Shown here one piece after another: positions 32,387-49,893 of a DNA stretch of 64,000 bases. Under the pieces are notes generated by a model that was not told where the DNA came from, ran no database searches, and was given only the letters and a program-made list of their open reading frames with translations. The position numbers and the translations under genes were made by a program. This stretch comes from Psilocybe cubensis. Taxonomy: Eukaryota. Each line of letters opens with the position of its first letter. Within the stretch, counting starts at the first letter, position 1. Location: assembly GCA_017499595.2 (NCBI GenBank), contig CM039007.1, positions 1,364,001-1,428,000 of the forward strand. Direction: 5' to 3'.

Positions 32387-32439
32387 TATGGAAAGCCAGA
32401 CTGATCTGCTCAATGTTTGGCTCATGCCGCGTGATGGCC
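32387..32439 (+). repeat. Left TIR (53 bp)
   Basis: TATGGAAAGCCAGACTGATCTGCTCAATGTTTGGCTCATGCCGCGTGATGGCC is the exact reverse complement of 45645-45697. Confidence 0.97.
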
Positions 32440-32803
32440 TTTGTAAATTAAACAATAAATAAATAAATAGTCATTTTGCTTTATAAATCAAGGTGTATCA
32501 CGATGTCACCGTGACTGATTAAATATTTGTTCGGTACTGAATGTGTAGAGCACAACTCGCTGCAGAGTACTTTCAGTATTGTTCACATACCTTCATATTT
32601 TTGCTCCTATAAATTACTTTTAATAATTAAGAACCAAACCTCCCGCCCTATGGAAACCCATAGAACTTTAGAACATTGATATCAATTTGAAATGTCACGA
32701 CAGGAGTAGGTGAATAGGAGTCCATTGAACCGATGGATGACTTGGACACTTTTATTCCTTAACCATTTCCACGATTATCCTGCTTTATTCACCATTTTCT
32801 ATT

Positions 32804-35561
32804 ATGAACAAGCCAACTGGAGATTATGAGGCCGAGTTTACATCGGAGCAGAACATGCCAGTTCAATGTAATCGATGCAAACAGCAATTTGCACCGGGTA
32901 CCCGGCTCCAATGGATGCATAATAAGCATCAAGGCGAAGGGTGTTACCTTTGTGGCTCATGCTACGAGTACTATTTATCGAAGAAAACTACGATACGTCG
33001 TGATAACAATCAGGGTCACAGTTAGTCTATCTTTAATATTTATTGTTAATTGACTTTATAATCTTTATTAGAGTCCGAAATAGCAGCTCGTAATGTTAAA
33101 GCTTTGCCGGTTGCTTCAGCTGCCGCTCACGTTGGTCGTGGTGAGTAATGTTTAATCTTTGGAATAATGGTTTCTCATTTAAATTGAAAATTAATAGTAG
33201 ATAATGCTGCAACTTCCGAAGCAGCTGTAGTCCAGAAGCATATTGCTGCAGCGCAGCGTGATGGTAAGTTAACCAACTATCCGGTAATGTCCAAATCTGA
33301 ATAATAATTAGAGCGCCTTGCACCTGTTGTTGCTGTGGGAAGAAATATTACACAAAGTGTTGCATATGGTTCTCCAGTCACAAATAGGCCTGCTCGACAA
33401 CAAGGCGTTAGCTCCTTTGGAGCTCTGTCTGGTCCTGGATCGACTGTTGTGAATGTTGGTCTTAAAGCCAAATCGCTTACCTTTCCACAAAAGGATTTAC
33501 TCAATCCGGGCTATCAAGAAGCACATGGATTTTATAACGAGATGCGCCAACATTTTGCGGCTATGGCGTATAGCTCCGTAGCCAATGCAGAGCTTGTAGT
33601 GGTCAAAGTTTGGCTTTCTGTCCGTGTTCCGACCAAAAAAAGCCCAGTTCATATCGCTGTAAGTAATTTGGTTCTTATTTCTATGATATATTCAGCTTAA
33701 TATTGGTATATTTTAGGGTCTTCATGAGGCCGTTTCAAATATTCCAGTTCATATAGGTCTAACTGATCTTAAACGGGTAATGTATTATGCTTTACTTCCT
33801 CAATTTTTGGAATGGTCAAAGGGGTTTCCTTTGCGTATCAATGACTGTGTTGTTAGGAATAAGTTATGGGTTGAACTTATTCCAAAACAGCCAGATGTTG
33901 ATGCTATATCGGAACACTTTTTCAGTTTCAAAGGTCGGAATAAGCTTTCAAAGATTTTTACTCCGAAGCAAGGAATTGAACTATACCTTTGTATTACTCA
34001 CCGCCTTTATGAGTCTATAATAGACCATATTACGGAGCCAAAGGAAACTTCTCATCGGCGGAATGATGAAATGCAGGTAAGTATTTTACTAGGTTTCTTT
34101 CGTAATGAGAATGACTAATATATTTTAAAGCCTTCAGCTTCGCTTCATGGAAGTATAGCATCTAAGGCTGTAAAGCGCAAATATTGGGAATCAGATGTTA
34201 GTAAACATTTTTGTTCTACTTACGACCACAGACTTACTGCAATTTTAGAATTTTGAGGCTGATCCAGTAGAGGGTCCATCACTTCAGCATACAGCAGATG
34301 AGCTAAAAAATGCACTTCAGCTTCAAGTCCCACCGCGCAAAAAAAATATGAAATCGTTATGTAAGTTTTAAATCTTTTTCTATGTTTAAAGTTAGAAAAT
34401 GTACTAAATTCATGTTTTTTTATAGTTCAGACAGTTATTGAAGATGTTTCGTTCTTCAAACTACCACCTCCAGTTTCATTCAGCGACTTGGTTAAAAACC
34501 CAGATGAGCTTCAAAATCCCCAGCACTTTGCACCAATGAATGCAACTATTTCCTATGATCCTTCAGCTATACCGTTTAAAGGAGCTTTTAAATTGGCTCG
34601 CGTGGGATATACTTCTACGCCCTTTCTCGGCAGTCGACTTTCAAATACTTGTATTTGTATCAAGCAAATATTTGGTGGTATTGACCCAGTAACAGACAAG
34701 CCTATTGTTTACGAGGGTCAAACTCAGGCGAAAAAGGTCAGCATTGAATTGAACTGTCTTGGTTGGGCATCTGCTCTTATGGAACTCGTCTATCAGTAAG
34801 CTTTTATTCTCAAATATACTAAAAAGATTCCAATTGCACTAATGCATGGTAAATTTATTAGGTTTATTCAAAGGAAAAAGCGCACCAGAGGAGTGCCTCC
34901 TTTTACTATTCCGGTTATGCGCTACGTCAACTCGGGTCTTGCTATTTCCAAGACCAACAATGCCAATGTCTACCTTTTGGAAGAATACATTGAAAGCAAA
35001 TCTCCTACTGGTGATGCATGGTTTGTGAAATATCTCAATAACAGCTCAGCACACCCCGTTTATTTCGCGAATCCGGAACAAAATGAATGGTCACAATTCC
35101 TCTCGTTTGCACAACACATTCAATATATTGAGACAAAGGGACTTGCCTTTGTTTCTGATTTTCAAGGCACGTATATCTTGTTTACTAAATTGTTACTTTT
35201 CTAACTAGTGCAATTCCTGATTATTATAGGCGGACGAACCCTTCTAACAGATCCTCAAATTATAACCCATCCGTCAGTAACCAGTTACTAATTTACATAT
35301 AGCGGTAGCTGATATTAGCCTTATTGTTTTAGCTCAATACCAGGCCTTATATTTGGTGACGGAAACACAAAATTTGAAACATTTGCTCTCGAGCACGATT
35401 GTAACAAATTTTGTCAATTTTTTGGACTTCCTAAAATTGACCGACCTCGTATCAATCTGGCCGACATTCCACCGCTAGTGGAATCGGATTCACTTCCCAG
35501 CCAAATTCGTCGTCAGAAAAGCGATTCCGGGAGTGCAGATATGGAATTATCAGAGGATTAA
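32804..35561 (+). CDS. Alpha-kinase (eEF2K/MHCK-like atypical kinase) with N-terminal CxxC...CxxC putative zinc finger, transposon-borne
   Basis: Exons encode CNRC..CGSC, FKGAFKLA, CIKQ, YLLEEYI, FVKYLNN, FAQHIQY, VSDFQG, LTDPQI, FGDGN and HDCNKFC..GL. The start codon is uncertain. Stop TAA at 35559-35561. Confidence 0.87.
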
Positions 35562-36199
35562 TAGCTTTCTTCAGACATGCTCTTAAATTGCTGAAGTCTT
35601 GTGTGCCATAATAAATGAATTGTGTGACAAAACTAATATTCTAAACAATGATCCTAGTAAATAAAATGATACACAGAGCGATCAGACAAAACTAGCAGCA
35701 CGGCAAGCCAATGCTAGATACCGTCCTGCTCGAAGACGCGACTTTGTAACTAAATGTGACGTGACTCGATTTTGTCACAGGCTCTTGGTTGATTATTCTG
35801 ACGTGTCTTAACTTGTGCTTTGTCGCCTCCCCTCCACTGATGCTCTCTCTGGCAACACTAAGAGGTTCACCGGTGTTTTTGAAAGCCTGCTGCTCACTTC
35901 ATAACACCAAGGATCATCCCTGGGCCAGGGTTATGGTGTGAGCAGCAGTTAATCAAACACAGTGGTGCCACAGGGTGTTCTTTACTGCCGTCCATGCCAC
36001 AACAAGCAGCCTGTTCAAACCAGCAACAAGGGAAAGGTGGAGGGGGTAAAGGGGAGGCCCATGAAATGGGGAATCCATAAGGTGTGTAACCTGCCATTTT
36101 CAGTGGCAAACATCACTTCCAACATCTCTATGAATAGGGCCCTACTTGCCCCCACCCCTCCCTCACAGTTTGCACCAATTAAGACGTCGGCGGGCATGT

Positions 36200-36600
36200 C
36201 TCTGCCGCCGCCGTGTTCCTCCGTTCGACGAGCAGCTTAAGCTGCTCGTTTCTGCCGCCGCCGCCCTCCTTCGTTTGACGAGCAGGAGCGCCGCTGCCGC
36301 CCTCCTCCGTTCGACGAGCAGCTTATGCTGCTCGTTTCTGCCGCCACCGCCCTCCTTCGTTCGACGAGCAGCTTAAGCTGCTCGTTTCTGCCGCCGCCGC
36401 CCTCCTTCGTTCGACGAGCAGCTCCTGCTCGTCTCTTGCCGCCGCCGCCCTCTCCTCCGTTCATGCTCGTTTCTGCCGCCGCCGCCTCCTCCGTCTGTTC
36501 GTCTCTTGCCGCTGCCGCCCCCTCCTCTGTTTGACGAGCAGCTTATGCTGCTCGTCTCTGCTCGTACAAGACGACGAGCAGTAACCTCGGCATTGCTGCT
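36200..36600. repeat. CpG-rich tandem array, ~50-bp unit with a 22-bp palindrome
   Basis: ACGAGCAGCTTAAGCTGCTCGT or close variants at 36228, 36314, 36364, 36414 and 36534, separated by (GCC)n-CTCCTTCGTTCG tracts. Confidence 0.9.
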
Positions 36601-37080
36601 TGTTTCGCCGCCTCCCGTCCCACCCATGTTACGACAAGCAGCGCCGACGTTGCAATTCATCCCGCCCCACCGCCCAGGTCATATCTACGAGACGACGAGC
36701 AGCAACTGTGAGGCTGCCGATTGTCTCGCTGCCTCACCGTGGCCCATCCATGAACCTACGAGCAGCTTTGCGACTGCTGCTCATCCCTCCACCCCAACGT
36801 CTCACCCTGTCCGAGCAGCGCAAAGAGGCGCGCGCGCAATGCCGCTCTTGTGTTGATGAGAGCGGCATTGCTGCTGCTACTCGTCCCGCCTCCTCCCAAC
36901 AACGCGCATTGACATAGCGACTCAACAGTGGCCCACCTTTCCTATCAACGACCAGCTGCTTCGCGCAGCTGGTCTGTGTCCGAGACTACAGCCGCCGCTG
37001 CCGCCGGTGTGTCCCGCCATCCCCGACGACTAGCATTCCGCTTCCACCGCCTCCATCGACGACCACCAGCACGAGGCAGC

Positions 37081-37530
37081 TGTCAGGGTTTCTCCAGTTT
37101 CCCCTCTTTATCTTCACAGAATTATCTTATCCTTTCATTATCTTATCAATTATCTGATTAGATAGTTTATTTCTTTCATCACAGCCTTCTTGTTCCACTT
37201 TTTTCTAGTAAATTCTATATGATTCCTAGTCTTACTCATTCTTTTTCTATATGATGTCACTTTTATTCTTTAACCTTCCTTTATGATGTAATGTAGGGAA
37301 TATTCTAGAATAGCTGTAGAGTATAAATACTGGACTTGTAGGTAGCTGTAGCTTCAGCTTCAATCTCTTAGGATATCCACTATCATTGGTGTGATCTCTT
37401 AGAACCATTGAATCTCTCTCACTCTCTTATTCTCTCTTTGCTCTCTTACTCTCTCTCTGCTCTCTCTCTCTCTCTCTTGCTTAATCTTTGTTGGTGGCCT
37501 TGTCACACTGATTATAGTGTTGCCCTGACA
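37081..37530 (+). repeat. 5' LTR (450 bp)
   Basis: TG...CA ends with 8-bp terminal inverted repeats, TATAAATA at 37322-37329. Appears identical to 43024-43473. Confidence 0.97.
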
Positions 37531-37532
37531 GA

Positions 37533-37543
37533 AGATTGAAGCT
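37533..37543 (+). promoter_or_regulatory. Primer-binding site, self-priming type
   Basis: AGATTGAAGCT is the exact reverse complement of AGCTTCAATCT at 37356-37366 in the LTR. It lacks the TGG start of a tRNA-type PBS. Confidence 0.75.
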
Positions 37544-38035
37544 CTCTCAAGACAACTCCACCATCTCTCTTTCAACACCAAACTCTTCACCTCTTCAACC
37601 TCTTCAACACCATCACCTCAACCTTCTTCCTCCACTTCCAACCCACCAACCTCTTCATCAACCTCTTCACCAATCTTCTTACCAATCTCTACATCTCCAC
37701 CAATCTTCAACATCCTCCTCAAAACCTTTCCTCAAGACCTTTCCTCAAGACCTTTGGCTCATCATCTTTCCTACTCTCTGTTGTGTGCTGTGTGTGAACT
37801 TAGTAGATAGGGATACCAACTGTTGGGGCAGACACAGTCCTACTAGTGTTCTGTTTTTGGTGGTCTAGGAAATATCCAGTAACCCTGTGATCCTAGGTTT
37901 AGAGCCCTGAGTGGTGTGACAACTGGGTATCCAGTAGATAGATATTTTTTTTAGAATACTTAGTATAGTTTCAAGGGCACTTTCAGTAGATAGCTTCTCC
38001 CACACACACATCAGAGAGCCTACCTACCCCTACCC

Positions 38036-39145
38036 ATGGACATGGACCCCTCCCAATTGCCTCCCACCACTCCTTCTGTGGAAGAGCTCATGCATCAGGT
38101 CCAGCTCCTTACCCAAGAGTTGAATTTTCTTAGACAGCAGCAGCAGTCATTATCCACTCCACCACACCCTCAGCAACCAGTCAGTCAGTCACCATCACCA
38201 CCACCACCACCACCACCTGCTGCTCTAGATATTCACTCTTTCCCTACCCCTCATGTTGCCCCTTCCTGTTCACACTCTGCCATTAAAGTCTCACCTCCAG
38301 ATCCATTTGATGGTTCTATGGAGAAGGCAGAAAACTTCCTCAGTCAGCTTAAATTATATTTCTATGGGAAAGGGATTACAGATGACTTTCAGAAAGTTAT
38401 TTGTGCTCTATCTCATATGAAAGGAGGTACTGCTGGGAAGTGGGCATATGAGAAGACTAAAGTAATAGACAATGCTCAGTCCCAAGAAGGTCTTTGGGCT
38501 GACTTTGTTTATGAATTTAGGGAAGTGTTTGCAGATCCAGACCCCTCCAACACAGCTAAGCATAAAATGCACATGCTCAAGCAAGGCAGACAGACTGCTG
38601 ATGAGTATGTTGCTAGCTTCAGGGCTCTGATCTCAGATACTGGGTATAATGATGCTGCTTTGGTAGACCAATTCAAGGCTGGGCTTAATGAAAATCTCAG
38701 GAATGCAGTCTACTATGTTCCTGACATGCCCAAAACCTTGGATGGATGGATTAAATGGAGTACTAGGCTAGATAGGCAGTGGAGACAGAGTGAGGCCTTT
38801 ACCAAGTCTCTTTCCTCCTCCTCTTCTTCTCCCTTCCTTAAAGCCCCAACTCCCAAGGCTGTTCCTAAGCCTACTCCAAATCCTCCAGTCTTTTCCAACA
38901 GCAGCTCAAGGACCTTTGGTGCTCAGGCAAAGCAACCAGATGTAGTTCCCATGGAGGTTGACTCTGGATGGAAGTCAGTTAGGCCAATTGTTTGCTTCAA
39001 GTGCAGAAAGCCTGGTCATAAGGCTGTAAACTGCAGGTCATCAGTTAACATCAATGCTATGACCCATGAAGAACTGGCTGACTACTTTGGGAAATTAATC
39101 TTGGAAGGCAAGGAGCAGAAAGATGAGGAAAAGAAAAATTTTTAG
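38036..39145 (+). CDS. gag: Gag (retrotransposon capsid with CCHC zinc knuckle)
   Basis: 369-aa ORF with PDPFDG, LKQG...EY..F and CFKCRKPGHKAVNC. Confidence 0.95.
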   Translation: MDMDPSQLPPTTPSVEELMHQVQLLTQELNFLRQQQQSLSTPPHPQQPVSQSPSPPPPPPPAALDIHSFPTPHVAPSCSHSAIKVSPPDPFDGSMEKAENFLSQLKLYFYGKGITDDFQKVICALSHMKGGTAGKWAYEKTKVIDNAQSQEGLWADFVYEFREVFADPDPSNTAKHKMHMLKQGRQTADEYVASFRALISDTGYNDAALVDQFKAGLNENLRNAVYYVPDMPKTLDGWIKWSTRLDRQWRQSEAFTKSLSSSSSSPFLKAPTPKAVPKPTPNPPVFSNSSSRTFGAQAKQPDVVPMEVDSGWKSVRPIVCFKCRKPGHKAVNCRSSVNINAMTHEELADYFGKLILEGKEQKDEEKKNF

Positions 39146-39153
39146 AAGCACCA

Positions 39154-42100
39154 TTGGTGAAAGACATGTCCCAATGGAATAGATTTAATGTACTAGAAAA
39201 TGAAATTGACAGACTTGATCCTCAGTCTTCAGATTCTGGTGCAGAAATCATGTCTTCTTCTTCCTCTCTTTCTACCTTCCCTGAAAAGATCTACATCCTC
39301 AACCATAATCCTAAAACCTCTACCCATTTGTCTGTCATCTTAAAGACAATGGACACAGAGAAAAGGTTATCTGTTGATGCTTTGCTTGATTCTGGAGCTA
39401 CTGGCCTCTTTCTGCATTCTGGTTTTGTGAAGTATCATAATCTCAACACAAGGAAACTTCCTAGAGCCATTCCAGTCTATAATGTTGATGGTACTCTCAA
39501 CAAGAGTGGCTCTATCCATGAGGAAGTAGACTTAATTATGGTACACAAAAACCATACAGAAAGGGCCACCTTTGCTGTTTGTGACTTGGGAGACAAATCT
39601 GCTATCATTGGACATACTTGGCTTTGGCACCATAATCCAGATGTTGATTGGAAGACAGGGGATGTCCAGTTTATTAGATGTCCCTCTGACTGCCAAATGG
39701 AAGCCAAAAGAGCCAGAAGAAAGAGGCAGAGAATAGCTGCAGTCAAAAGGAGGAAACTCCCTCAATTTGATGAAGAAGAAGATGATTCTATTGAAGATTC
39801 TTCTAATTCTGAGATTGAGCCTGAGGATAGAATTTTTATCTCATACCTTCATCCTCAGAAGCAGTCTATTAATGCTACTTCTACTATGTCTCAAAGATTA
39901 GCAGAAGAGTCTCATCAGCAAGCTGATTCCCCTAAGAAAACCTTTGAAGAAACTGTTCCTAAGCACTATCATCAGTTTAAAGGTGTTTTTTCAAAGGAAT
40001 CTTTTGATAGGCTACCAGACAGAAAGCCTTGGGATCATGCTATTGAGCTGAAACCTGGTTCTGAACCTTACAGATCCAAGATTTATCCTCTTTCTCCCAA
40101 TGAACAAAAGGAACTTGATGCCTTTTTAGAGGAAAATCTGAAGTCTGGCAGGATTAGACCCTCCAAGTCACCTATGGCCTCCCCTGTATTCTTTGTCAAG
40201 AAGAAGGATGGATCTCTTAGGCTTGTCCAGGACTATAGGAAACTGAATGAAATGACCATCAAGAACTCCTACCCCCTTCCATTGATTTCTGACATCATCA
40301 CCAAACTCAGCAAAGCCAAATACTTCACCAAACTTGATGTTAGGTGGGGATTTAACAATGTCAGAATCAAAAAGGGAGATGAATGGAAAGCAGCCTTTAG
40401 AACCAATAGAGGGCTGTTTGAACCATTGGTCATGTTCTTTGGTTTAACCAATAGTCCTGCTACCTTCCAAACTATGATGAATGATATCTTTATTGAGCTC
40501 ATTGATGGAAATGTTGTCATTGTCTACATGGATGACATTTTAATTTTCACTGAGACTCTTGATCATCATAGAGAGGTAGTCAAGCAAGTTCTGCAAATCC
40601 TAGAACAGAACAAACTCTACCTTAAAGCAGAGAAATGTGAATTTGAAAAGGAAAAGATTGAATATCTTGGACTAATCATTTCACAAGGCAGGATTGAGAT
40701 GGATCCTGTCAAGGTAGAGGGAGTTTCTAAATGGCCTGAACCTGAAAATGTCAAGGATGTCCAATCATTCTTGGGATTTGTTAATTTTTATAGAAGGTTT
40801 ATAGAGGATTTTGCAGACATTGCTAAGCCCCTTCATGAATTGACAAAGAAAGGAACAGTCTGGAGATGGAGTCTTAGACAGCAGGAAGCCTTTGACCAAT
40901 TAAAGAAGAAAGTCACTTCTTCACCTGTCTTGATTTTCCCTGATGATAACAAGCCATATAAAGTTGAAGCAGACAGTTCAGATTATGCTACTGGGGCTGT
41001 TTTATCTCAGGAAGGATCAGATGGGAAATGGCATCCTGTAGCCTTTATGTCTAAGAGTCTATCTGAAGTAGAAAGGAATTATGAGATCCATGACAAAGAG
41101 ATGCTGGCTATTATCAGAGCACTAGATGAATGGAGACATTATCTTGAAGGAACCCAACATTCCTTTGAGATTTGGACAGACCACAAAAACTTAGAGTACT
41201 TTATGGTTGCCCAAAAGCTTAGCAGAAGGCAAGCCAGATGGTCACTCTTCCTGTCCAGATTTGATTTTACTCTTCATCATAGGCCTGGTAAAAGATCTCT
41301 TAAGCCAGATGCTTTGTCTAGGAGACCAGATCATAAAAAGGGGGAGAATGATAACCAAAATGTAGTTCTCCTCAAACCTTCCTACTTTAAAATCCAGGCT
41401 CTCAAGCAGGGTCATGCTACCATTACTGGTGCAGAAAATGATCTTCTTAAGAAGATTAGAGAAGCTAAGGAGATGGATGAAAAGGTGGTCAAGGCAGTTC
41501 AGGAGCTCAAGAAATCTTCAACCAAGAAGATTGAAGGACAGGAATGGTCAGAAGAACAAGGTCTTATTCTCTATAGGGGGAAGGTGTATGTTCCCAAGGA
41601 CAAAGATCTTAGAAGAAAGATTGTGGAACTGCACCATGATGCCTTCATTGCTGGACATCCAGGGAAATGGAAGACAATTGAGCTAGTCTCTAGGAATTAT
41701 TGGTGGCCAGGAATGTCACATTTTATTGCAGCCTATACCAGAGGTTGTGATAGATGCAACAGAACCAAAACCTTTCCAGCCAAACCTCTTGGTCTTTTAA
41801 TTCCTACTGAGATTCCCTCTGATGTCTGGCAATGCATCTCTGTGGACTTTATTATGGGGTTACCAGAATGTCAAGGGTATAATGCCATTATGGTGGTTGT
41901 GGATAGACTTAGTAAAATGATCCACATTATCCCTACTACAGATGAAGTCACTTCTGAAGGGACAGCCAGACTATACAGAGATTATGTCTGGAAACACCAT
42001 GGCTTACCCATTAAAATTCTATGTGATAGAGGTCCACAGTTTGTCTCAAGGTTTATGAAAGAACTCAACTCAATACTTGGTATCCAGACAGCCTCATCTA

Positions 42101-43023
42101 CAGCCTACCATCCCCAAACTGATGGTCAGACTGAAAGAGTTAACCAAGAAATTGAGCAGTATCTTAGACTCTTTATAAACCATAGACAAGATGATTGGGT
42201 TGAATGGTTAGCTCTAGCTGAATTCTCTTATAACAATAGAGTTCAGGCTTCAACCAGGCAGACACCATTCATGCTCAATAATGGCAGACATCCCAGAATG
42301 GGCACTGAACCCCTTAGAGATAGTAAAATGGACACTGTGGATACCTTTGTGAAAAATATGGAAGAAGCCAGGAAAGAAGCAGAGTCTGCACTTAGAAAAG
42401 CTGCTGATGATATGGCTAAATTCTATAATAGACACAGAGGTACTCCAACTCAGTACAAAGTTGGGGATTTGGTATGGTTGGATGGCAAGGACCTCAAAAC
42501 TGATAGGCCCTCCAAGAAATTGGATGATAAAAGATATGGGCCTTACAAAATTACCAAAGTTATTAGCCCTAATGCCTATGAGCTTAAGCTGCCATCTACC
42601 ATGAAAATCCATCCAGTGTTCAATGTGGTTAAACTTCTACCTTATCATCCAGATATTGTAGGAAGAAAGCCTCCTTCTAGACCACCTCCTGTCATTCAAG
42701 GAGAAAATCCTGAGTGGGAAGTTGAATTTATCAAGGACAGCAGACTTTTTAGAAACAAACTTCAATATTTGGTCAAGTGGAAGAACTATCCTAATGAAGA
42801 ATGCACTTGGGAGCCTGCAGAGCATTTGAAAAATGCTTCTAAGGCTATCAAGGACTTCCATGCCAAACATCCTTCAGCACCTAGAAGGATTTCTGCTGTG
42901 ACCTTTGATAGACTTTCTTTCACTCCTATTATTAACTTTACTGAACCTCCTCCTCTTCTTAAACCCTCTAAACTAACCCATCCATGTGCACATTGTGGAA
43001 AATGTGCCTTAGAGAGGGGGTGA
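39154..43023 (+). CDS. pol: Pol polyprotein (PR-RT-RNaseH-IN-chromodomain), probably expressed by -1 frameshift
   Basis: 1289-aa open ORF: LLDSGAT protease, YMDD RT, ADSSD RNase H, HH..GH..C..C and D,D,E integrase, GPY motif, chromodomain WEVE..YLVKWKNY...TWEP. Confidence 0.98.
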   Translation: MVKDMSQWNRFNVLENEIDRLDPQSSDSGAEIMSSSSSLSTFPEKIYILNHNPKTSTHLSVILKTMDTEKRLSVDALLDSGATGLFLHSGFVKYHNLNTRKLPRAIPVYNVDGTLNKSGSIHEEVDLIMVHKNHTERATFAVCDLGDKSAIIGHTWLWHHNPDVDWKTGDVQFIRCPSDCQMEAKRARRKRQRIAAVKRRKLPQFDEEEDDSIEDSSNSEIEPEDRIFISYLHPQKQSINATSTMSQRLAEESHQQADSPKKTFEETVPKHYHQFKGVFSKESFDRLPDRKPWDHAIELKPGSEPYRSKIYPLSPNEQKELDAFLEENLKSGRIRPSKSPMASPVFFVKKKDGSLRLVQDYRKLNEMTIKNSYPLPLISDIITKLSKAKYFTKLDVRWGFNNVRIKKGDEWKAAFRTNRGLFEPLVMFFGLTNSPATFQTMMNDIFIELIDGNVVIVYMDDILIFTETLDHHREVVKQVLQILEQNKLYLKAEKCEFEKEKIEYLGLIISQGRIEMDPVKVEGVSKWPEPENVKDVQSFLGFVNFYRRFIEDFADIAKPLHELTKKGTVWRWSLRQQEAFDQLKKKVTSSPVLIFPDDNKPYKVEADSSDYATGAVLSQEGSDGKWHPVAFMSKSLSEVERNYEIHDKEMLAIIRALDEWRHYLEGTQHSFEIWTDHKNLEYFMVAQKLSRRQARWSLFLSRFDFTLHHRPGKRSLKPDALSRRPDHKKGENDNQNVVLLKPSYFKIQALKQGHATITGAENDLLKKIREAKEMDEKVVKAVQELKKSSTKKIEGQEWSEEQGLILYRGKVYVPKDKDLRRKIVELHHDAFIAGHPGKWKTIELVSRNYWWPGMSHFIAAYTRGCDRCNRTKTFPAKPLGLLIPTEIPSDVWQCISVDFIMGLPECQGYNAIMVVVDRLSKMIHIIPTTDEVTSEGTARLYRDYVWKHHGLPIKILCDRGPQFVSRFMKELNSILGIQTASSTAYHPQTDGQTERVNQEIEQYLRLFINHRQDDWVEWLALAEFSYNNRVQASTRQTPFMLNNGRHPRMGTEPLRDSKMDTVDTFVKNMEEARKEAESALRKAADDMAKFYNRHRGTPTQYKVGDLVWLDGKDLKTDRPSKKLDDKRYGPYKITKVISPNAYELKLPSTMKIHPVFNVVKLLPYHPDIVGRKPPSRPPPVIQGENPEWEVEFIKDSRLFRNKLQYLVKWKNYPNEECTWEPAEHLKNASKAIKDFHAKHPSAPRRISAVTFDRLSFTPIINFTEPPPLLKPSKLTHPCAHCGKCALERG
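43011..43023 (+). promoter_or_regulatory. Polypurine tract
   Basis: AGAGAGGGGGTGA lies immediately upstream of the 3' LTR and overlaps the pol stop codon. Confidence 0.85.
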
Positions 43024-43473
43024 TGTCAGGGTTTCTCCAGTTTCCCCTCTTTATCTTCACAGAATTATCTTATCCTTTCATTATCTTATCAATTATCTGA
43101 TTAGATAGTTTATTTCTTTCATCACAGCCTTCTTGTTCCACTTTTTTCTAGTAAATTCTATATGATTCCTAGTCTTACTCATTCTTTTTCTATATGATGT
43201 CACTTTTATTCTTTAACCTTCCTTTATGATGTAATGTAGGGAATATTCTAGAATAGCTGTAGAGTATAAATACTGGACTTGTAGGTAGCTGTAGCTTCAG
43301 CTTCAATCTCTTAGGATATCCACTATCATTGGTGTGATCTCTTAGAACCATTGAATCTCTCTCACTCTCTTATTCTCTCTTTGCTCTCTTACTCTCTCTC
43401 TGCTCTCTCTCTCTCTCTCTTGCTTAATCTTTGTTGGTGGCCTTGTCACACTGATTATAGTGTTGCCCTGACA
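43024..43473 (+). repeat. 3' LTR (450 bp)
   Basis: Direct repeat of 37081-37530, followed by TSD GCAGC. Confidence 0.97.
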
Positions 43474-43760
43474 GCAGCTGGGTTGTGTCGCCGCTGCCGC
43501 TGCCGCCCTGCCCCGCTCTAGCCACCATCGACAATCACCAGGGCGAGGCTGCTGGGTCGGCCGCCGCTGAGGGGGAAGAAGAAGACGGCACAGCTGTGTT
43601 TGCATTTCCATTCGCATTTGCGTGTCCACCAACCCTTGATTGGCGAGGAAGTATCTACTTTCTATTGTATTTTAGCACAATTAACTGTTTTTTATGCCCA
43701 ATAACTGATCATTGTGTAGTTGATACTAAGACTAAGTAATTTATAGATTTACTGTGTTAT

Positions 43761-45488
43761 TTATTCTTCATCTGTATCTGTAAATGAAGCATAGTTTCTA
43801 TCGTCTGAGTGTTCCTGCAACCCAACAACTTTATCACCTTGTCGCAGGTCTTTCATTCCATCAAGTAAAGATATTTCCTCTTGATCAATACCTTGTTCTT
43901 CAGCAACACGCGCAGTCAGAACAACTTCAATTTCTTCATCAACCTCACCACAAAAGCGCTCGAGCATGGTACGATAAATTTCCCAAAAACTGGCCATTGT
44001 TACCTCAGGAGTCCCAATGTCCTCATAAATCTTTCGGGCTCGTTCGTCAAAGGCAGGTGGTGTAAGTTGAAAAACTGGGTGATCTTTGGGTGCATACTCG
44101 TTTTCAAGGTCATCAAGAAGGTCTTCTGTAACAGGAATCTATTCAATGTAAATTGAATTTCTGGTCTATAGCATCTACACAATAAACATACCTTAAAGTC
44201 AAGAGCATTGAATTTTTCGGGCTTGGTGCGAATTAACAGAGGAGCACCGAGTGGGAGAATTTTCTTGCGGTCTGAACGTGGTGCCGTTCGATTTTTGGTA
44301 TTTGCCCACTTGTCAAGCTCGTTTTGCAGCCATGGAATTGCGATCCAGCGGAAAACCAAGCTATGTAAACAATAATTAAAACAGATATCACAAAAAATTA
44401 TGATCAAACATACTTTTCAACAACATTGGTAACTTCATACCATCCAGAAACAACTCCTTGTTGGAACAAATCCTCATAACCAGGAGCAAAGTCACGACGA
44501 AATACCGACCAATTGATTTCAGGCTTGATGTTGGCTTTATGCCGAAGCCACCTATGTTGCAGAGTCCCAACAAGAGTAGGATCAAGCCGGTGTCGAGCCA
44601 AGGTCTGAATGTTGGCTACACCAAAATTTTCTGATCCTGGGTCACTTTGCGTCGTAAGAGGAATAGCTGTTTAAAGTTAACTTTATTCAGTAAAAATAAT
44701 AGAAGAGTAAAATTAAACCTACCGCCATATTTGCGAGCCGTATCAATAAAATAACCAGCAATTAGACAGGGATTCTTGTTAGTCCACCATACCTTTAACC
44801 AATTCAGGAATCCAGTGAATGGATCTGCACTGTGGTGAAGCCACAGTCCAAACCGAGGACCCCATTTGTCATGTTGGTCTTGGGCCCAAGTATCGTTAAC
44901 ACCAGCAGCATGGTAGCGTCTGCGTTTGAATCTACGAGCCTTCCGAGCCTTTAGCGCATCGGGCTCAGTCATTTGAAGATAATTATAAACAACACTTCTG
45001 GTGTAGACTATATTTGAGCAAGTTCTTCCAAAAATGATAATATTCAATTCATACCGAGGAACTCTGATATTAAACTCAACCCGTAGCTGCTTTCTAATCA
45101 TTTCCACACCTCGAGTAGGGAATCTAGTTCGCATTTCCTGAATGGCAGGGGCAATTGACTCCAAGGTGTGCTTTTGTTGTCGAGTACTGAGAAGATCCCA
45201 CTTTTTTCTAAGCCTTTTAATGCTCGACACACTAGAAGTAGATTAATTGATACGTATTCCCGTGTCCGTAGAGGTAATAACAACGCACCTTAGGCCATAC
45301 AATTCTGTATTGTAATGGTCTTTCATATTGTCCTGAATCTCACGATCGTTCTGACCTAGATCATAGTAGAACTGTACGTATTCCTTGATTTCATCCTCAG
45401 GGGCTTGTGGATCAATAGATGACTTCAGTTTCTATTACCTATTGTACAAAACACAAGACTTACGAAGTGGTTTATGCTGGTTCGGCAT
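43761..45488 (-). CDS. IS3/IS481-like (IS3EU-type) DDE transposase with N-terminal Clr5/HTH-like region, intron-containing
   Basis: MPNQHKPL|PPEDEIKEYVQFYYDLG..|SIKRLRKKWDL..RRRYHAAGVNDTWAQDQHDKW (D1)..TQSDPGSEN (D2)..NIKPEINWS (E). Starts about 210 bp inside the right TIR. Confidence 0.88.
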
Positions 45489-45644
45489 TGATTTTAATAC
45501 AAAAAGAATAGAAGAGACGGCGCTGAGTAGGGATTTTCAATTGTCGCCCTATCACGATGAGAAACAAGGTAGGAAAATATATTTCATTCAGAATAGGAGT
45601 CTACGGATAACACAAGCATGTTTTAGCTAGACGTTAGCAGGACC

Positions 45645-45697
45645 GGCCATCACGCGGCATGAGCCAAACATTGAGCAGATCAGTCTGGCTTTCCATA
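45645..45697 (-). repeat. Right TIR (53 bp)
   Basis: Reverse complement of 32387-32439, followed by TSD TTTATC. Confidence 0.97.
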
Positions 45698-46393
45698 TTT
45701 ATCAGCCGAAGATCAAGGCCAGGCCTTGGATGGAGGGCATATTCAACAAAATGAACAAGATGCCGATCAGGGTACTAGGAGATACAGCCGTAGAGGGTCG
45801 AGACTGAGGCCAGGGAACTATGCGATTCTCAAATAAGTAATAAGTGACGTAATACACAACAGCGTGTTTACGGCAGCGAGCTTGACTGCGCTCACAATGA
45901 AACTTCTACCACTCACGCTCAAGCTCTCAAAGTTTCGACCAAGGCTGATCAGGGGCTGATCAGGGGCACCTAGTTCGTTTATAGAACATTATGGCTTCGA
46001 ATTCACATTTATGCTCAGCGATGATGAAGTTTGAACCCCCCACCGATTTACGCAGCAGATGATGCTGAACAAAACAGGACTCATCAGCGGAGACCACAAC
46101 ATGGAAATTAACCTCTGTTATGCCATTCGTTATAATATGCAAGCGCGACCAGCATGTTGAAGGTTGGATGAAAGTCTCACTGCTGTTGTTCGGTAGGCAT
46201 TGATTGCACACCAAAAGGAGCGATCTTGGCCCTCTTGGCGATATATAACCAAAATTTCTCCTTGCGGCTTACTTGTGGACTTCATAATTGAACGCGACAT
46301 TTACCCCAAACTCATTCTCAAAAATACCCTTTCTTTTTATTTTCTTTCTTATTTTCTACTTCATAGGCGTTAGGCTGCAGAGCAAAAGGCGAA

Positions 46394-48860
46394 ATGCTTG
46401 CCTCCGCTTTTCTGCTGCTTCCAAGCATTGTTTCAACGGCTCGAGCGGTCACTGTGTATGGCCAAATACCGCTTGCTCAAACTGCGTCGGGTACATCAGG
46501 CATTCCAACAATTCCAACACTGGCGGCCTACGATAAAACGCAGCTTGTCCCTCCAGCAATCGTTGAACCTGCCCCCGCCAATGCGTACACATTAACGCTT
46601 CAAGACAATGCGGCGGCAGTAGACGGCCTTTCAATTCCTCACGTTGGGCCTGGATTTTGGGGTTTCTCTCTTGAAATGTCGGTGCTCAATCAAGTCTGTG
46701 AGTATACAGTCAATCATCGCGCTGTCCCATCGATTTACTCATTGGACATACGAACTTTCAGTGGGCAAAAACTCGTATGTTTTTAACATGCATGACAATG
46801 TCCTACAACTTATTTGCATCATTCATAGATCACTCATTCAGGTCCCGTTTTTAAACCTTATGTCCAATCTTATCGAACGCTCAGGTGGTGTTCTAATTCG
46901 AATCGGCGGGAACACTCAGGAATTTGCGACAATGGTACCATTCCTGGAAGGTGGAAAAACATTCGACAAGGAAGATTCAGGAAGTACACAGACGGTATGT
47001 GATCAGAATTCACCTTGCTGAAATACCGTCTGAGGTTCCCTAGACCAAAACTCCCGCTGTCCTTTATACAATCGATATGTTCTACATGGCGGCCAATATC
47101 TCGTCAATGTTAAATGTCAAATGGTTTTTCGGTCAGTGTCTAAAATCATTGAGTGTTCACCACACCATAATCAAATTGTGTAAAAATAGGCATACCTTTC
47201 AATGATTCAGTAAACTGGCGTTTGACCATTGCAGAAGAGGCTCAGAGCATTGTCGGTGACAACTTGATTGCCCTTCAGGCTGGAAACGAACCTGATTTCT
47301 ACGAGGAGTATGTACTTTTACCTTTCATCAAAATGACTTTTGTTCTGAAACCATTGAAGATTCGGGCGTCGTCAAACTTACTCTCCGGAAATGTATACTC
47401 AGGAAGTCGAGCAACTTGTTGCTGTTATTGACGCCAATGATCGTATTCCAATCAAGAATATGTTACTGGGACCAAGTGTCGCCACAGGACCATGGACGCC
47501 TGAACAAGTTTGGGAAACAAATTTCATTGAACGCCTGAAAGACAGATTGCATGCCTTGACTGTTGAGCAGTAAGTTCAGTAAATTTTAAGGCTATCGCGT
47601 TTTTATTCATTGTGGTAAAAGCTATCCCAACAACAATTGCGCAGCTGCATATAACAACGGAGGAAGAGTTGTAATTCCACAAGAAATTTTTCCTGAATAT
47701 CTTTCGCATACAGCTGCAGTTGAACTTGTTCGACCATACTGGAATTCCGCAGCGCTTGCCGTGGAAGCAGGAAAACCGTTATACATGTTCGAGACTAATA
47801 CGGCATCTTGTGGTGGCTTCGCTGGAGTCAGCGATTCGTATGGTGCCGCTCTCTGGGCCATGGATTATGGATTCCAGATGGCGTATGCCAACTTTACTCA
47901 CGGAATGCTCCACGTCGGTGGACAGAACGTATTCTACAATGTGCGCATTCATTGATGCAAAATGCTATCGTGGCTTTATCCTGATCGTCTGTGACCTTTA
48001 TCCAGCCTTTCACTGCTCCCCCCACAAATCAATCCTCATACAACCAGTGGACTGCAGGAGCGGTCTATTACTCCACCGTCGTACTTGCAGAAGCGTTTGG
48101 AAAGAGCAACACATCTAGGATTGTCGATCTTTTGGGAAACGCAGGCTCGGTTTATACGCCATCCTATGCCATATACGAACAGGAAAAGCTTAGCAAAGTC
48201 GCTTTATTCAATTACATGGATGATGCGTCAGGTGCTCACGACCTGAGTGTTACTATTTCCGTACCAACAGGAGTACCAACAACGGTTGAAGTCAAGTAAG
48301 CAGCGTTTAGGATCTTGTTACCTCATATCAGAGTTGACAAAGAACAGATATCTTGCCGCAAGTTCGGTTTCTTCCAAGGATAATATCACTTGGGCGGGCC
48401 AGGTAAGGAAATATCGCCCTGCCTGTCGCAAGTACGAATGTTGATCTGTAGCCTCTAGACACTCGGTAACCAGTATGAAGTCGATGGACGATTCAAAGGC
48501 GAGCTGAACGTCACCACCATCAACTGCGATACTGTAGCAAGCACCTGCATAATTCCAATACCCGCTCCTGGCTTTGCCCTTGTCTTCTTCAATAATGCTG
48601 CAGAACAATTAACCATCGGCCAGGCCACTCAAACGTTCGGGACGACCGCTTTCAGCAGGGGCCACAACACAGCGACTGTCGATCCTGCTGTGCTTCAGAC
48701 ATCAAACGGACACTCTGGAGCCAACCGAGACTCCTATAGGAGTACGAGTCTTGGAAGTGCAAGCTCTGCCGAAAAGAAAGTCGCCATGATTCCAGGTGTC
48801 ATTGCGTTATTTTCGGTGATTGTAGGCAGCTTTTGGGTAGCGCGAAATCTTGTGCAGTAG
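46394..48860 (+). CDS. Glycoside hydrolase family 79 (beta-glucuronidase-like), secreted, with C-terminal hydrophobic/GPI-like tail
   Basis: Signal peptide, IRIGGNTQE, catalytic QAGNEPDFY, and MFETNTASCGGFAGVSDSYGAALWAMDY. Confidence 0.9.
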
Positions 48861-49893
48861 ATGAAGGCTGCTACAGCTCGTCATACCATTTCAGCATGTT
48901 ATTCCAGCCACGGTCTGGGGTAACTGTTCACCGACGGACACTTACACTTATTTAGTTAGGTTTATGGCGCATGAGGAACACCATTACCAACCTTTGACCA
49001 GGACATTTAGCTAATGAATTTTTGTTTCTTTAGAGATGTAGAATATTAATGATTACTCACTGATGCAGGATGATAGCTCGAGTTTAGAGGTGCTAGACGC
49101 TTGAAGCTGACCTCAAACCCTGGGAATTTTGCTATCAATAGGCATTCACGTACATGCCAATTCCATTACTGTTTCCTGCTTTTACTCTTGTATCACACCC
49201 ATCGAAGTCCAGAAAAGCGAAATAACGTCAAGTAAGCCCTTTCTTTAGAGCATTTAATGCCCTAGATGTCAAATAACGTGTTACAAAGCAGAGATCAGGC
49301 AAAGACAAAGCTGGACACAATCAAGGAGACATGAAGGGAGAAATGTCTTCCGGGTATTAATACACGTAAAACCCAGCGCCAAAATGGATGAGCAAGAAAT
49401 AGTCGAACAGGTACCAAGATGCTCTCATACCTTTGCTCAGCCCTTGCTGAACCCCTTTCTTAAGTACTTTTGCCAAGTCGGGGCCAAGTCTTTCTGATAC
49501 CCCGTTTCCACAACACCAAACCTCTTGCACACGTTGGAGACGTGATATGGCAGGATATTGGCCCGGATAAGCTCAATTCTCGGTCCAAATACGCACATTA
49601 CTTTGTCCGATGCTCCAGTAAGGCAGCCATTGTCTTGAAAAGGATCTGGCCAAGGGCCAAGTCGCTGCAATTATCCTGGCGCTCGAAAAATTCGTGGCAA
49701 AGACTCCACATTCACACAATCAAAGTGACGACAGGATAACCAACCGCAACACCATTTCTTCCTTCTCCTAACTTTTCCGCACCCCTCCCCCTCTTGATCC
49801 CAGTCAGCTCACCTGTCCATTCTTTTCCATTCTTTTCAACTTGAATTGTCTTCTAGAACCTAATATTTCTATAACAAGCTGGCGTGAAAAAGG

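What the first reader, a model, noticed from the sequence alone, without database searches (positions are those of the whole stretch)
37081..43473. Intact, recently inserted LTR retrotransposon with apparently zero CpG in 6.4 kb: candidate methylation-evading element
Seen: reading every line from 37081 to 43473 I found no CG dinucleotide. GC, CC and GG are common there, and CG is dense immediately on both sides of the TSDs. A rough compositional expectation is a couple of hundred CpGs (estimate, not computed). Both ORFs are open, the LTRs look identical, and conserved arginines (DYRKLN, FYRRFI, RRQARW) are kept using only AGA/AGG. Known: basidiomycetes methylate transposons mainly at CpG, and 5mC deaminates to T. 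Inference: decay after insertion would turn CGN-Arg into Cys/His/Gln/Trp/stop and make the LTRs differ, which is not seen. The lineage therefore appears to have lost CpG over many replication cycles while staying functional, so it offers no substrate for CG methylation. The host DNA transposon's genes are not depleted in this way.
Basis: partly seen in the sequence, partly recalled or inferred. Interest (0 to 1): 0.9.

Follow-up and report, generated by a model that had tools for sequence, protein, structure and literature searches.

The report
CpG-free active mushroom LTR retrotransposon
An intact, recently inserted jumping gene in a mushroom genome contains not one CpG, the site that DNA methylation mainly marks in this group of fungi, so it offers a natural test of whether a transposon can escape methylation by losing every target site.

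Summary
Window 37081-43473 (6393 bp) has 0 CpG where base composition predicts 266. The CpG-free gap is 6417 bp; the next longest in the window is 196 bp.

The element is a complete Ty3/gypsy chromovirus. It has 450-bp LTRs with 0 differences, a 5-bp TSD, open gag and pol, a Tf1-like self-priming site and a -1 frameshift site. It is nested in a TIR DNA transposon whose CpG content is near normal.

Public reads show about 30-45 near-identical copies, few solo LTRs and a precise empty-site allele. Of the 22 displayed coding variants between copies, 20 are synonymous. None of the 30 displayed variants inside the element creates a CpG.

Among 102 relatives with DNA, low CpG occurs only in broken copies. 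All 16 relatives with a long open pol have CpG o/e of at least 0.70. CpG absence is therefore an inherited property of a functioning lineage, not decay after insertion.

The cause is unproven: methylation-linked mutation, selection to escape methylation, or both. No methylation or expression data could be reached. I found no published precedent for a CpG-null active transposon.

The parts
37076..37080 (.). Left target-site duplication GCAGC
   Evidence: the same 5 bases flank both ends; a contig of run X1 joins the left flank directly to 43474 with a single GCAGC (empty site).
37081..37530 (+). 5' LTR, 450 bp, TG...CA, 0 CpG
   Evidence: 0 mismatches to the 3' LTR; 0 CpG against 13.1 expected.
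37322..37329 (+). TATAAATA box in the LTR (putative promoter)
   Evidence: It lies 34 nt upstream of the putative self-primer. Its promoter function is inferred.
37356..37366 (+). 11-nt stretch in the LTR complementary to the primer-binding site; putative 5' end of the transcript and self-primer
   Evidence: an exact 11-nt reverse complement of 37533-37543. The Tf1-type self-priming reading is recalled, not tested.
37533..37543 (+). Primer-binding site (self-priming type), 2 nt after the 5' LTR
38036..39145 (+). gag: Ty3 capsid-like domain, Retrotrans_gag and a CCHC zinc knuckle
   Evidence: open frame 37994-39145 with the first Met at codon 15. Pfam PF19259 (3.3e-10), PF03732 (3.7e-9), PF00098 (3.5e-4).
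39136..39142 (+). Putative -1 frameshift heptamer A AAT TTT, just before the gag stop codon
   Evidence: The pol frame is -1 relative to gag and overlaps it by 19 nt. Frameshifting itself is inferred.
39127..43023 (+). pol: DSG protease motif, RT, RNase H, integrase (H2C2, rve, SH3) and a C-terminal chromodomain
   Evidence: PF00078 1.1e-37, PF17917 5.4e-39, PF17921 7.1e-20, PF00665 3.2e-10, PF24626 3.8e-18, PF00385 2.5e-15; translation.
43011..43023 (+). Polypurine tract abutting the 3' LTR, overlapping the end of pol
   Evidence: sequence shown. Its function is inferred.
43024..43473 (+). 3' LTR, 450 bp
43474..43478 (.). Right target-site duplication GCAGC
32387..45697 (.). Host TIR DNA transposon in which the LTR element is nested (about 6.9 kb without the insertion)
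   Evidence: 53-nt perfect inverted repeats at 32387-32439 and 45645-45697. TTTATC on both outer sides; CpG o/e 0.88. ORF 44619-45242(-) resembles integrase-core (rve/rva_4) clusters; read depth steps down beyond about 45830, and contigs of X1 diverge at 45697.

Best explanation
This is a recently inserted, fully equipped member of a young, multi-copy family of Tf1/sushi-like Ty3/gypsy chromoviruses in an Agaricales genome. Its total lack of CpG is inherited from its replicating lineage. The most likely history has three steps. (1) Over many rounds of insertion and retrotransposition, CpGs in methylated copies were lost faster than other sites through 5mC-linked C-to-T change. (2) Only copies that stayed transposition-competent founded new copies, so CGN Arg codons were replaced by AGR, and NCG codons and C|G codon junctions by synonymous alternatives. 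(3) The last CpGs were removed and are kept out, probably with help from selection, because a copy without CpG cannot be marked by the CpG-specific DNMT1-RFD/DNMT5 machinery of Basidiomycota. The present result is an element with no substrate for CG methylation that is currently proliferating. Shown here: the anatomy, the recency, the copy number, the purifying selection between copies, and the derived, lineage-level nature of the CpG loss. Inferred: methylation as the driver, and any benefit from escaping it.
For: CpG absence: 0 CpG against 266 expected. Coding level: 0 of 92 Arg codons are CGN, against 42-98 CGN per intact relative. 0 of 403 NCN codons are NCG. 0 of 312 C-ending codons are followed by a G-starting codon; about 95 junction CpGs are expected even with the element's own codon usage, and the minimum in 2000 simulations was 71. 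The same protein encoded with the relatives' or the host's codon usage gives 287+/-12 or 272+/-12 CpG. Old rather than fresh loss: TpG and CpA o/e are 1.21 and 1.15 against 1.12 and 1.12 in the rest of the window, far too little to hold about 250 recent conversions. Recency and activity: the LTRs have 0 of 450 differences. One search gives the rest. A precise empty-site contig occurs in run X1. Raw reads of X18 give a summed depth of about 1500 on the internal region, against about 33 on the single-copy flank and about 53 on the DNA-transposon flank, so roughly 30-45 copies. The LTR bins have about 1.9 times the internal depth, so solo LTRs are few. 44196 of 70861 laid reads are at least 99% alike. 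Selection between copies: 20 of 22 displayed coding variants are synonymous. Family-wide CpG avoidance: 0 of 30 displayed variants in the element create a CpG. 20 of them are T>C or A>G, for which 4.7 CpG-creating changes are expected (P=0.0045). Contrast with relatives: of 102 relatives with DNA, the 16 with a pol ORF of at least 1000 aa all have whole-locus CpG o/e of at least 0.696 (median 0.97). All 56 with o/e below 0.5 have a longest ORF of at most 748 aa. None has zero CpG. Derived state: in the tree the window element lies in a 16-row clade (support 99) next to a clade holding CpG-normal L001, L002, L015 and L092. Depth of the state: Arg exchanges in the close protein clade favour AGR-type partners, K/T/M/I 457 against H/Q/C/L/P 109, versus 50 against 40 in CpG-normal controls (Fisher p=6.5e-7). 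Literature: CpG methylation confined to TE-rich regions, and DNMT1-RFD plus DNMT5, in Basidiomycota (PMC13297926, passages read). CpG transitions in Agaricomycotina TEs attributed to 5mC deamination (PMC3318451, passages read). CpG-to-TpG signatures in basidiomycete TEs (PMC4352252, passages read).
Against: No methylation, small-RNA, chromatin or expression data were reachable, and no host genome is held. So it is not shown that this species methylates TEs, that other families are methylated, or that this family is unmethylated or expressed. The multi-copy DNA transposon around the element is barely depleted (o/e 0.88, or 0.76 without its GC-rich repeat, against 0.93 for the rest of the window). 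The host's CpG decay pressure on repeats therefore looks weak, at least on that element. There is no clear TpG/CpA footprint of deamination. Zero is only modestly below the floor seen in the most decayed relatives: 3.4-4.8 CpG expected at the 499 neutral proto-CpG sites, P(0) 0.008-0.03. Selection against CpG is therefore suggested, not demonstrated. Only 30 variant places in the element were displayed; 318 more rows across the four runs were not shown. DNA of the close relatives (65-88% identity) could not be obtained, so their CpG state rests on an indirect protein-level signal with a small control of 4 pairs. In mammalian cells a CpG-free transgene was silenced as well as the normal one (PMC1449906, abstract seen in the search listing), so lacking CpG need not mean escaping silencing.
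Confidence: 0.55

Rival explanations
1. Neutral mutational end state. Lacking CpG brings no advantage, and the family is controlled, or not, by H3K9 methylation, RNAi or non-CG methylation like any other.
For: Decayed relatives reach whole-locus o/e of 0.04-0.05 (L073 and L102). Scaling their CpG/(TpG+CpA) ratio to the 499 neutral proto-CpG sites gives only 3.4-4.8 expected CpGs, so zero is not wildly improbable. LTR pairs of relatives differ by 411 transitions against 34 transversions, with CpG the most mutable context (0.36 per site). This shows that strong C-to-T processes exist in related hosts. A CpG-free transgene is still silenced in mammalian cells (PMC1449906, abstract in the listing).
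Against: P(0) is 0.008-0.03 even against the two most extreme decayed loci, and below 1e-5 against the other six depleted loci tested. Variants shared by several copies never create CpG (0 of 20 T>C or A>G, P=0.0045). The family is proliferating now. The neighbouring repeat in the same genome is hardly depleted.
Confidence: 0.28
2. CpG avoidance imposed on the RNA or cDNA rather than on chromosomal DNA. Examples would be a CpG-sensing RNA restriction factor (as ZAP acts on retroviruses in vertebrates; recalled) or a CpG-preferring deaminase acting during reverse transcription.
For: CpG is absent from the whole transcribed unit, coding and non-coding. The variant spectrum between copies is transition-rich, 179 transitions against 33 transversions in X18, with C>T plus G>A (118) exceeding T>C plus A>G (61).
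Against: CpG is also absent from the 275 bases of U3 upstream of the putative transcription start (37081-37355). That stretch is in the RNA only at the 3' end, so this is weak evidence against. No such factor is known in fungi to my knowledge (recalled; no search was made for it). No strand asymmetry is evident: TpG 1.21 against CpA 1.15.
Confidence: 0.07
3. The CpG-null state evolved in another host and the family arrived here by horizontal transfer, so it says little about this genome's defences.
For: Near-identical copies are held by runs carrying several coded organism labels (A-G). In X10 the element is covered at depth about 10-14 while the flank is absent. The family is young here, with few solo LTRs. 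A preprint reports extensive horizontal transfer of fungal TEs (10.1101/2025.06.16.659975, abstract seen in the listing).
Against: The labels are coded and could be strains, synonyms or mixed samples. Depth about 12 for a roughly 30-45-copy family equals under 0.5x genome coverage, which explains the missing flank without any transfer. The element's G+C (41%) is close to the window's (44%). Transfer would not explain the CpG loss; it would only move it elsewhere.
Confidence: 0.08
4. Ordinary CpG decay of a dead copy after insertion, or an assembly artefact.
For: CpG-poor LTR elements are common among relatives (56 of 102 with o/e below 0.5).
Against: All of those are broken (longest ORF at most 748 aa). 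Here the 383-aa and 1298-aa frames are open and the LTRs are identical. The element is seen independently in several public runs. Both LTRs carry the same minority alleles at 43136, 43144 and 43183, held by 4-8% of reads in X18. This argues against a consensus-polished collapse.
Confidence: 0.02

Closest known systems
Tf1/sushi-group chromoviruses (Ty3/gypsy, Metaviridae), such as Tf1 of fission yeast, MAGGY, and marY1 of Tricholoma (names recalled)
   Same: LTRs with TG...CA, a 5-bp TSD, gag with a CCHC knuckle, pol in the order PR-RT-RH-IN with a C-terminal chromodomain, and an 11-nt primer-binding site complementary to the LTR as in Tf1 self-priming.
   Different: No CpG at all in 6.4 kb. 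All 16 relatives with a long open pol for which DNA was available have CpG o/e of at least 0.70.
CpG-depleted, methylated transposons of Basidiomycota (Horns 2012, PMC3318451; Amselem 2015, PMC4352252; Clutterbuck 2017, known only from citations because it is not held)
   Same: The same dinucleotide is lost, in the same kind of element, in a group of fungi that methylates CpG in TE-rich DNA (PMC13297926).
   Different: Those are partial depletions seen in diverged, mostly defective copies and read as decay. Here depletion is total, the copy is intact, young and multi-copy, and variation between copies is synonymous.
Microbotryum TE lineages with a paucity of TpCpG at positions where C-to-T would be non-synonymous (mentioned in the discussion of PMC3318451)
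   Same: The idea that a TE lineage is reshaped so that the host's hypermutation target is missing where it would hurt.
   Different: There it is a bias at one trinucleotide in the Pucciniomycotina. Here every CpG is gone, coding and non-coding, in an Agaricales.
CpG suppression in viruses (HIV-1 and other RNA viruses against ZAP; small DNA viruses and gammaherpesviruses) and restriction-site avoidance in phages (all recalled)
   Same: A mobile genome loses the short sequence that a host defence recognises.
   Different: Other hosts and other sensors. Suppression there is partial, and none is a fungal retrotransposon.
Engineered CpG-free transgenes (PMC1449906, abstract seen in the listing)
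   Same: A functional coding unit with all CpGs removed, which cannot be CpG-methylated.
   Different: Man-made. It was still silenced in mammalian cells, a caution against equating 'no CpG' with 'no silencing'.

Membership tests
Ty3/gypsy (Metaviridae) LTR retrotransposon | Direct LTRs ending TG...CA, flanked by a short target-site duplication | tested here: met
   450-bp LTRs, 0 mismatches, TG...CA, 5-bp GCAGC on both sides. The empty site with a single GCAGC is seen.
Ty3/gypsy (Metaviridae) LTR retrotransposon | gag with a capsid domain and a zinc knuckle | tested here: met
   PF19259, PF03732 and PF00098, all above their curated cut-offs.
Ty3/gypsy (Metaviridae) LTR retrotransposon | pol domain order RT - RNase H - integrase (integrase after RT) | tested here: met
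   RVT_1 at residues 357-518, RNase H at 581-712, Integrase_H2C2 at 825-882, rve at 902-996.
Ty3/gypsy (Metaviridae) LTR retrotransposon | Aspartic protease upstream of RT | tested here: inconclusive
   No protease family passed E 0.001. A D-S-G-A motif (LLDSGATG) is visible at about residue 88 and is invariant in alignment A1.
Chromovirus clade | Chromodomain at the C-terminus of the integrase | tested here: met
   PF00385 at residues 1197-1246, E 2.5e-15, after the Tf2-1-like SH3 domain.
Tf1/sushi self-priming group | Primer-binding site complementary to the 5' end of the element's own transcript rather than to a tRNA | tested here: met
   the 11 nt at 37533-37543 are the exact reverse complement of 37356-37366, which lies 34 nt downstream of a TATAAATA box. 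The transcription start and the priming itself are not testable here. No tRNA complementarity test was run.
Post-insertion CpG decay or RIP-like mutated repeat | Stops and frameshifts, diverged LTRs, and an excess of TpG/CpA matching the lost CpG | tested here: not met
   Open frames, identical LTRs, and TpG/CpA o/e of 1.21/1.15 against a background of 1.12/1.12.
Methylation-evading transposon (functional claim) | Lacks the sequence the methyltransferases act on | tested here: met
   0 CpG. CpG specificity of basidiomycete DNMT1-RFD and DNMT5 is taken from PMC13297926 (passages read).
Methylation-evading transposon (functional claim) | Is unmethylated and expressed or mobile while CpG-bearing families in the same genome are methylated and silent | not testable with these tools
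   No genome is held, no RNA holder is listed, and no methylation data are offered. Mobility is supported indirectly by the insertion polymorphism and copy number.

The most novel reading that the evidence does not exclude
This family is a natural 'stealth' retrotransposon. Selection, not just mutation, has removed and keeps out every CpG, so the CG-only methylation system of Agaricomycetes (DNMT1-RFD and DNMT5) has nothing to write on. This lets a chromodomain-bearing element keep multiplying. It would be the eukaryotic counterpart of restriction-site avoidance in phages, and the first TE known to have purged its host's methylation target completely.
Probability: 0.35. Interest if true: 0.85.

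Novelty: new variant of a known kind. Interest (0 to 1): 0.7.

Why it matters
CpG methylation is held to be the main DNA-level mark on transposons in mushroom-forming fungi, but whether it is needed to restrain them is largely untested. A complete, currently multiplying retrotransposon family with no CpG at all sits next to a CpG-bearing transposon in the same locus, and so works as a ready-made natural experiment. If it is unmethylated and active while other families are methylated and quiet, that would show that a transposon can out-evolve a CG-only methylation defence by losing the target. If it is silenced anyway, methylation is dispensable for silencing in these fungi. It also shows how far synonymous recoding can go under selection: about 290 CpGs avoided in 1,681 codons, including every codon junction.

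Tried and rejected
Whole-genome census of copies and of DNMT genes: impossible, because no genome is held (error).

RNA evidence: no RNA holder is listed. Run X14 is only guessed to be RNA and gave five contigs of 152-227 nt. I do not count this as evidence either way.

DNA of the close relatives (65-88% identity, P0001-P0051): not obtainable. The metagenome scan (best 80 of 594 confirmed stretches kept), two viral scans and the genome-contig scan returned nothing closer than 60% identity.

Column-wise counting of residues that co-occur with Arg was too noisy. I replaced it with nearest-neighbour pairs, all pairs and finally disjoint pairs.

Estimating the CpG mutability ratio from LTR pairs of relatives: those hosts show general C-to-T hypermutation (411 transitions against 34 transversions). 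The figure does not transfer to this host, so I report it only as an aside.

Pfam on ten flank ORFs gave one alpha-kinase hit plus a sub-threshold copper amine oxidase hit and no transposase. The protein atlas gave the integrase-like lead.

Earlier findings of this scan: nothing relevant.

Literature on a CpG-free or CpG-null active transposon: eight full-text searches found none. Clutterbuck 2017, the paper most likely to bear on this, is not held, and supplementary files were not consulted.

Post-insertion decay and assembly artefact were considered and rejected (see the rival explanations).
Full report
OBSERVATION. Window 37081-43473 (6393 bp, 40.9% G+C) contains no CpG. Base composition predicts 266, GpC occurs 212 times, and the 5 kb on either side hold 226 and 206 CpGs. 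The nearest CpGs are at 37072 and 43489. That gap of 6417 bp compares with 196 bp for the next longest gap in the 64-kb window. Every part is CpG-free: each LTR (13 expected), the 5' leader (19), gag (61) and pol (157).

ANATOMY.
- The two 450-bp LTRs (37081-37530 and 43024-43473) are identical, begin TG and end CA, and are flanked by a 5-bp duplication, GCAGC.
- gag carries a Ty3 capsid-like domain and a CCHC knuckle. Its open frame is 37994-39145, with the first Met at 38036.
- pol (39127-43023, 1298 codons) carries RT, RNase H, the integrase zinc finger and core, a Tf2-1-type SH3 domain and a C-terminal chromodomain. A D-S-G protease motif is visible, but no protease family passed the threshold.
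- pol is in the -1 frame and overlaps gag by 19 nt. The overlap holds the heptamer A AAT TTT immediately before the gag stop codon, a plausible -1 frameshift site (inferred).
- Two bases after the 5' LTR, 11 nt (37533-37543) are the exact reverse complement of 37356-37366 in the LTR. That LTR stretch lies 34 nt downstream of a TATAAATA box. This is the layout of Tf1-type self-priming (recalled).
- A polypurine tract abuts the 3' LTR.
- The element is therefore a complete Ty3/gypsy chromovirus of the Tf1/sushi kind.
- It is nested inside a DNA transposon bounded by perfect 53-nt inverted repeats (32387-32439 and 45645-45697) with TTTATC on both outer sides. An ORF of that transposon resembles integrase-core (rve/rva_4) protein clusters (a lead only).
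- A host gene fragment (an AMP-binding ligase) is 81-86% identical to proteins of Cyclocybe, Galerina, Panaeolus and Psilocybe. The host is therefore an Agaricales not represented exactly among the named proteins.

RECENCY AND ACTIVITY. No whole genome is held, so I laid public data on 37531-47473 (organisms and runs are coded).
- Copy number. In raw DNA reads of run X18 the internal region has a summed depth of about 1500. The single-copy flank beyond the DNA transposon has about 33 and the DNA-transposon flank about 53. This gives roughly 30-45 copies.
- Solo LTRs. The LTR bins have about 1.9 times the internal depth, as expected for two LTRs per copy, so solo LTRs are few.
- Similarity of copies. 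44196 of 70861 laid reads are at least 99% alike and only 514 are under 90%.
- Empty site. A contig of run X1 joins the left flank directly to position 43474 with a single GCAGC, a precise empty site. The insertion is therefore polymorphic, or heterozygous.
- Not a polished collapse. Both LTRs of the window copy carry the minority alleles at 43136, 43144 and 43183, held by 4-8% of reads in X18. This argues against a consensus-polished collapse.
- Selection between copies. Of the 30 best-supported variant places inside the element, 22 are coding, and 20 of those 22 are synonymous. The copies therefore diverged while under purifying selection, that is, along replicating lineages. Note that 318 further rows across the four runs were not displayed.

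CpG ABSENCE BELONGS TO THE LINEAGE AND IS NOT DECAY.
- Codon level. All 92 Arg codons are AGA or AGG. None of the 403 Ser/Pro/Thr/Ala NCN codons is NCG. None of the 312 C-ending codons is followed by a G-starting codon, although 28-29% of codons start with G. With the element's own codon usage, random codon order gives 95+/-8 junction CpGs (minimum 71 in 2000 trials). With the usage of intact relatives or of host ORFs, the same proteins would carry 287+/-12 or 272+/-12 CpGs. The 14 intact relatives analysed in that call use 42-98 CGN Arg codons each, and host ORFs use 32 of 44.
- No fresh deamination footprint. TpG and CpA are barely above background (1.21 and 1.15 against 1.12 and 1.12). The roughly 250 missing CpGs are therefore not sitting there as recent deamination products. 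AG and CT are the enriched dinucleotides (1.38 each).
- Variants between copies. None of the 30 displayed variants creates a CpG. 20 of them are T>C or A>G, of which 4.7 would be expected to create one (P=0.0045).
- Relatives with DNA. I collected 102, at 33-60% protein identity. L094 was dropped because it is 29% identical and sits in an oddly labelled record. The 16 relatives with a pol ORF of at least 1000 aa all have whole-locus CpG o/e of at least 0.696 (median 0.97). All 56 with o/e below 0.5 are broken (longest ORF at most 748 aa). The Spearman correlation between ORF length and o/e is 0.68. The lowest o/e is 0.038 and none is zero. In relatives, low CpG goes with decay; the window element is the exception.
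- Direction of change. In a pol tree the window element lies in a well-supported 16-row clade made only of protein-only relatives. That clade sits next to a clade that contains the CpG-normal L001, L002, L015 and L092. The loss is therefore derived.
- How deep the state goes. This could only be probed indirectly. In 23 disjoint pairs of close relatives, Arg exchanges with residues one step from AGR (K, T, M, I) number 457, against 109 with residues one step from CGN (H, Q, C, L, P). In 4 pairs of CpG-normal relatives the counts are 50 and 40 (odds ratio 3.4, p=6.5e-7). This suggests that AGR coding is clade-wide, but the control is small.

MECHANISM. Passages I read in the literature establish three things.
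- Basidiomycota methylate mainly CpG, in TE-rich DNA, through DNMT1-RFD and DNMT5 (PMC13297926).
- Agaricomycotina TEs show excess CpG transitions, attributed to 5mC deamination rather than RIP (PMC3318451).
- Basidiomycete TEs carry CpG-to-TpG signatures ascribed to a MIP-like methylation process (PMC4352252).

The most economical account is long-term CpG-specific mutation pressure on a repeatedly methylated lineage, filtered by the need to stay transposition-competent. The end point is an element that cannot be CpG-methylated.

Is mutation enough? The element has 909 sites that are one transition away from a CpG: 165 non-coding, 334 synonymous and 410 non-synonymous. I applied the CpG/(TpG+CpA) ratio of the two most depleted loci (0.0069-0.0096) to the 499 neutral sites. 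One of these is the decayed relative L073; the other is L094, the oddly labelled record excluded from the relative statistics. This predicts 3.4-4.8 CpGs, so P(0) is 0.008-0.03. The other six depleted loci tested predict 12-26. Zero is thus below the observed mutational floor, but not overwhelmingly. Three points tilt me towards some selection against CpG:
- variants shared between copies never create a CpG;
- the neighbouring DNA transposon has near-normal CpG (o/e 0.88);
- the family is expanding now.

I put the combined account at 0.55, a purely neutral end state at 0.28, and selection for evasion as the main driver (the boldest reading) at about 0.35 as a sub-claim.

What is missing is any measurement of methylation, chromatin or RNA. 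No RNA holder was listed, and the one run guessed to be RNA gave only five short contigs.

COMPARISON AND NOVELTY. Structurally this is an ordinary Tf1/sushi-type chromovirus. CpG-depleted TEs in basidiomycetes are known, but as partial depletion of decaying copies. The discussion of PMC3318451 mentions Microbotryum TE lineages that are poor in TpCpG where mutation would be non-synonymous, which is the closest conceptual precedent. Viral CpG suppression and phage restriction-site avoidance (recalled) are functional analogues.

Eight full-text searches found no report of an intact, active transposon with no CpG. Clutterbuck 2017, the paper most likely to bear on this, is not held, and supplements were closed. 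Prior description therefore cannot be excluded.

I rate the finding a new variant of a known kind, with interest 0.7. The adaptive reading is open and directly testable.

Noticed in passing
window 32387-45697: A TIR DNA transposon, about 6.9 kb without the LTR insertion. It has perfect 53-nt terminal inverted repeats and a 6-bp TTTATC duplication. ORFs lie on both arms, including an alpha-kinase-like stretch (34800-35201, PF02816, 2.4e-8) and an integrase-core-like ORF (44619-45242, minus strand). Read depth suggests it is present in more than one copy.
   Followed up: partly
window 36198-36900: A GC-rich (about 61%), CpG-dense block of 50-nt and 86-nt tandem repeats, each containing a short palindrome. 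It lies inside the DNA transposon, just upstream of the LTR insertion site.
   Followed up: no
L094 (OZ255840.1, labelled as a Lapillicoccus MAG chromosome), 22962 bases: A stretch labelled as an actinobacterial MAG chromosome has 40% G+C and CpG o/e 0.028 (26 CpG against 928 expected), with a degenerate gypsy-type pol at 29% identity. It looks like eukaryotic DNA under a bacterial label.
   Followed up: no
L092 and L093 (DATMDU010000027.1 and DATMDU010000048.1, labelled as a Pyrinomonadaceae MAG): Two contigs of a bacterial MAG are fungal-type chromoviruses. L092 has an intact 1304-aa pol at 58% identity and LTRs. This is probably fungal contamination of the bin.
   Followed up: no
L004-L092, 24 LTR-like pairs at 88% identity or more: LTR pairs of the metagenomic relatives differ almost only by transitions (411 against 34 transversions). 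C/T differences per site are 0.36 at CpG, 0.16 at CpA, 0.13 at CpC and 0.05 at CpT. This is a RIP-like, not purely CpG-specific, hypermutation pattern in the unknown hosts.
   Followed up: partly
window 46367-48857 and 49888-52366; also 53858-55370 and 58057-59622: Two pairs of tandemly duplicated host genes. One pair encodes a secreted-looking protein whose paralogous exons share stretches such as AVTVYGQIPLAQTA. The other pair encodes two AMP-binding long-chain fatty-acid-CoA ligase paralogues on the minus strand.
   Followed up: no
window 7374-7473: A run of 100 N, that is, an assembly gap.
   Followed up: no
window 40800-43183 against 37531-40300: The window copy carries minority alleles (2-11% of X18 reads) at the displayed variant places from 40800 onward. 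Upstream of about 40300 it matches the majority at all displayed places except 39805. This suggests a recombinant between subfamilies.
   Followed up: no
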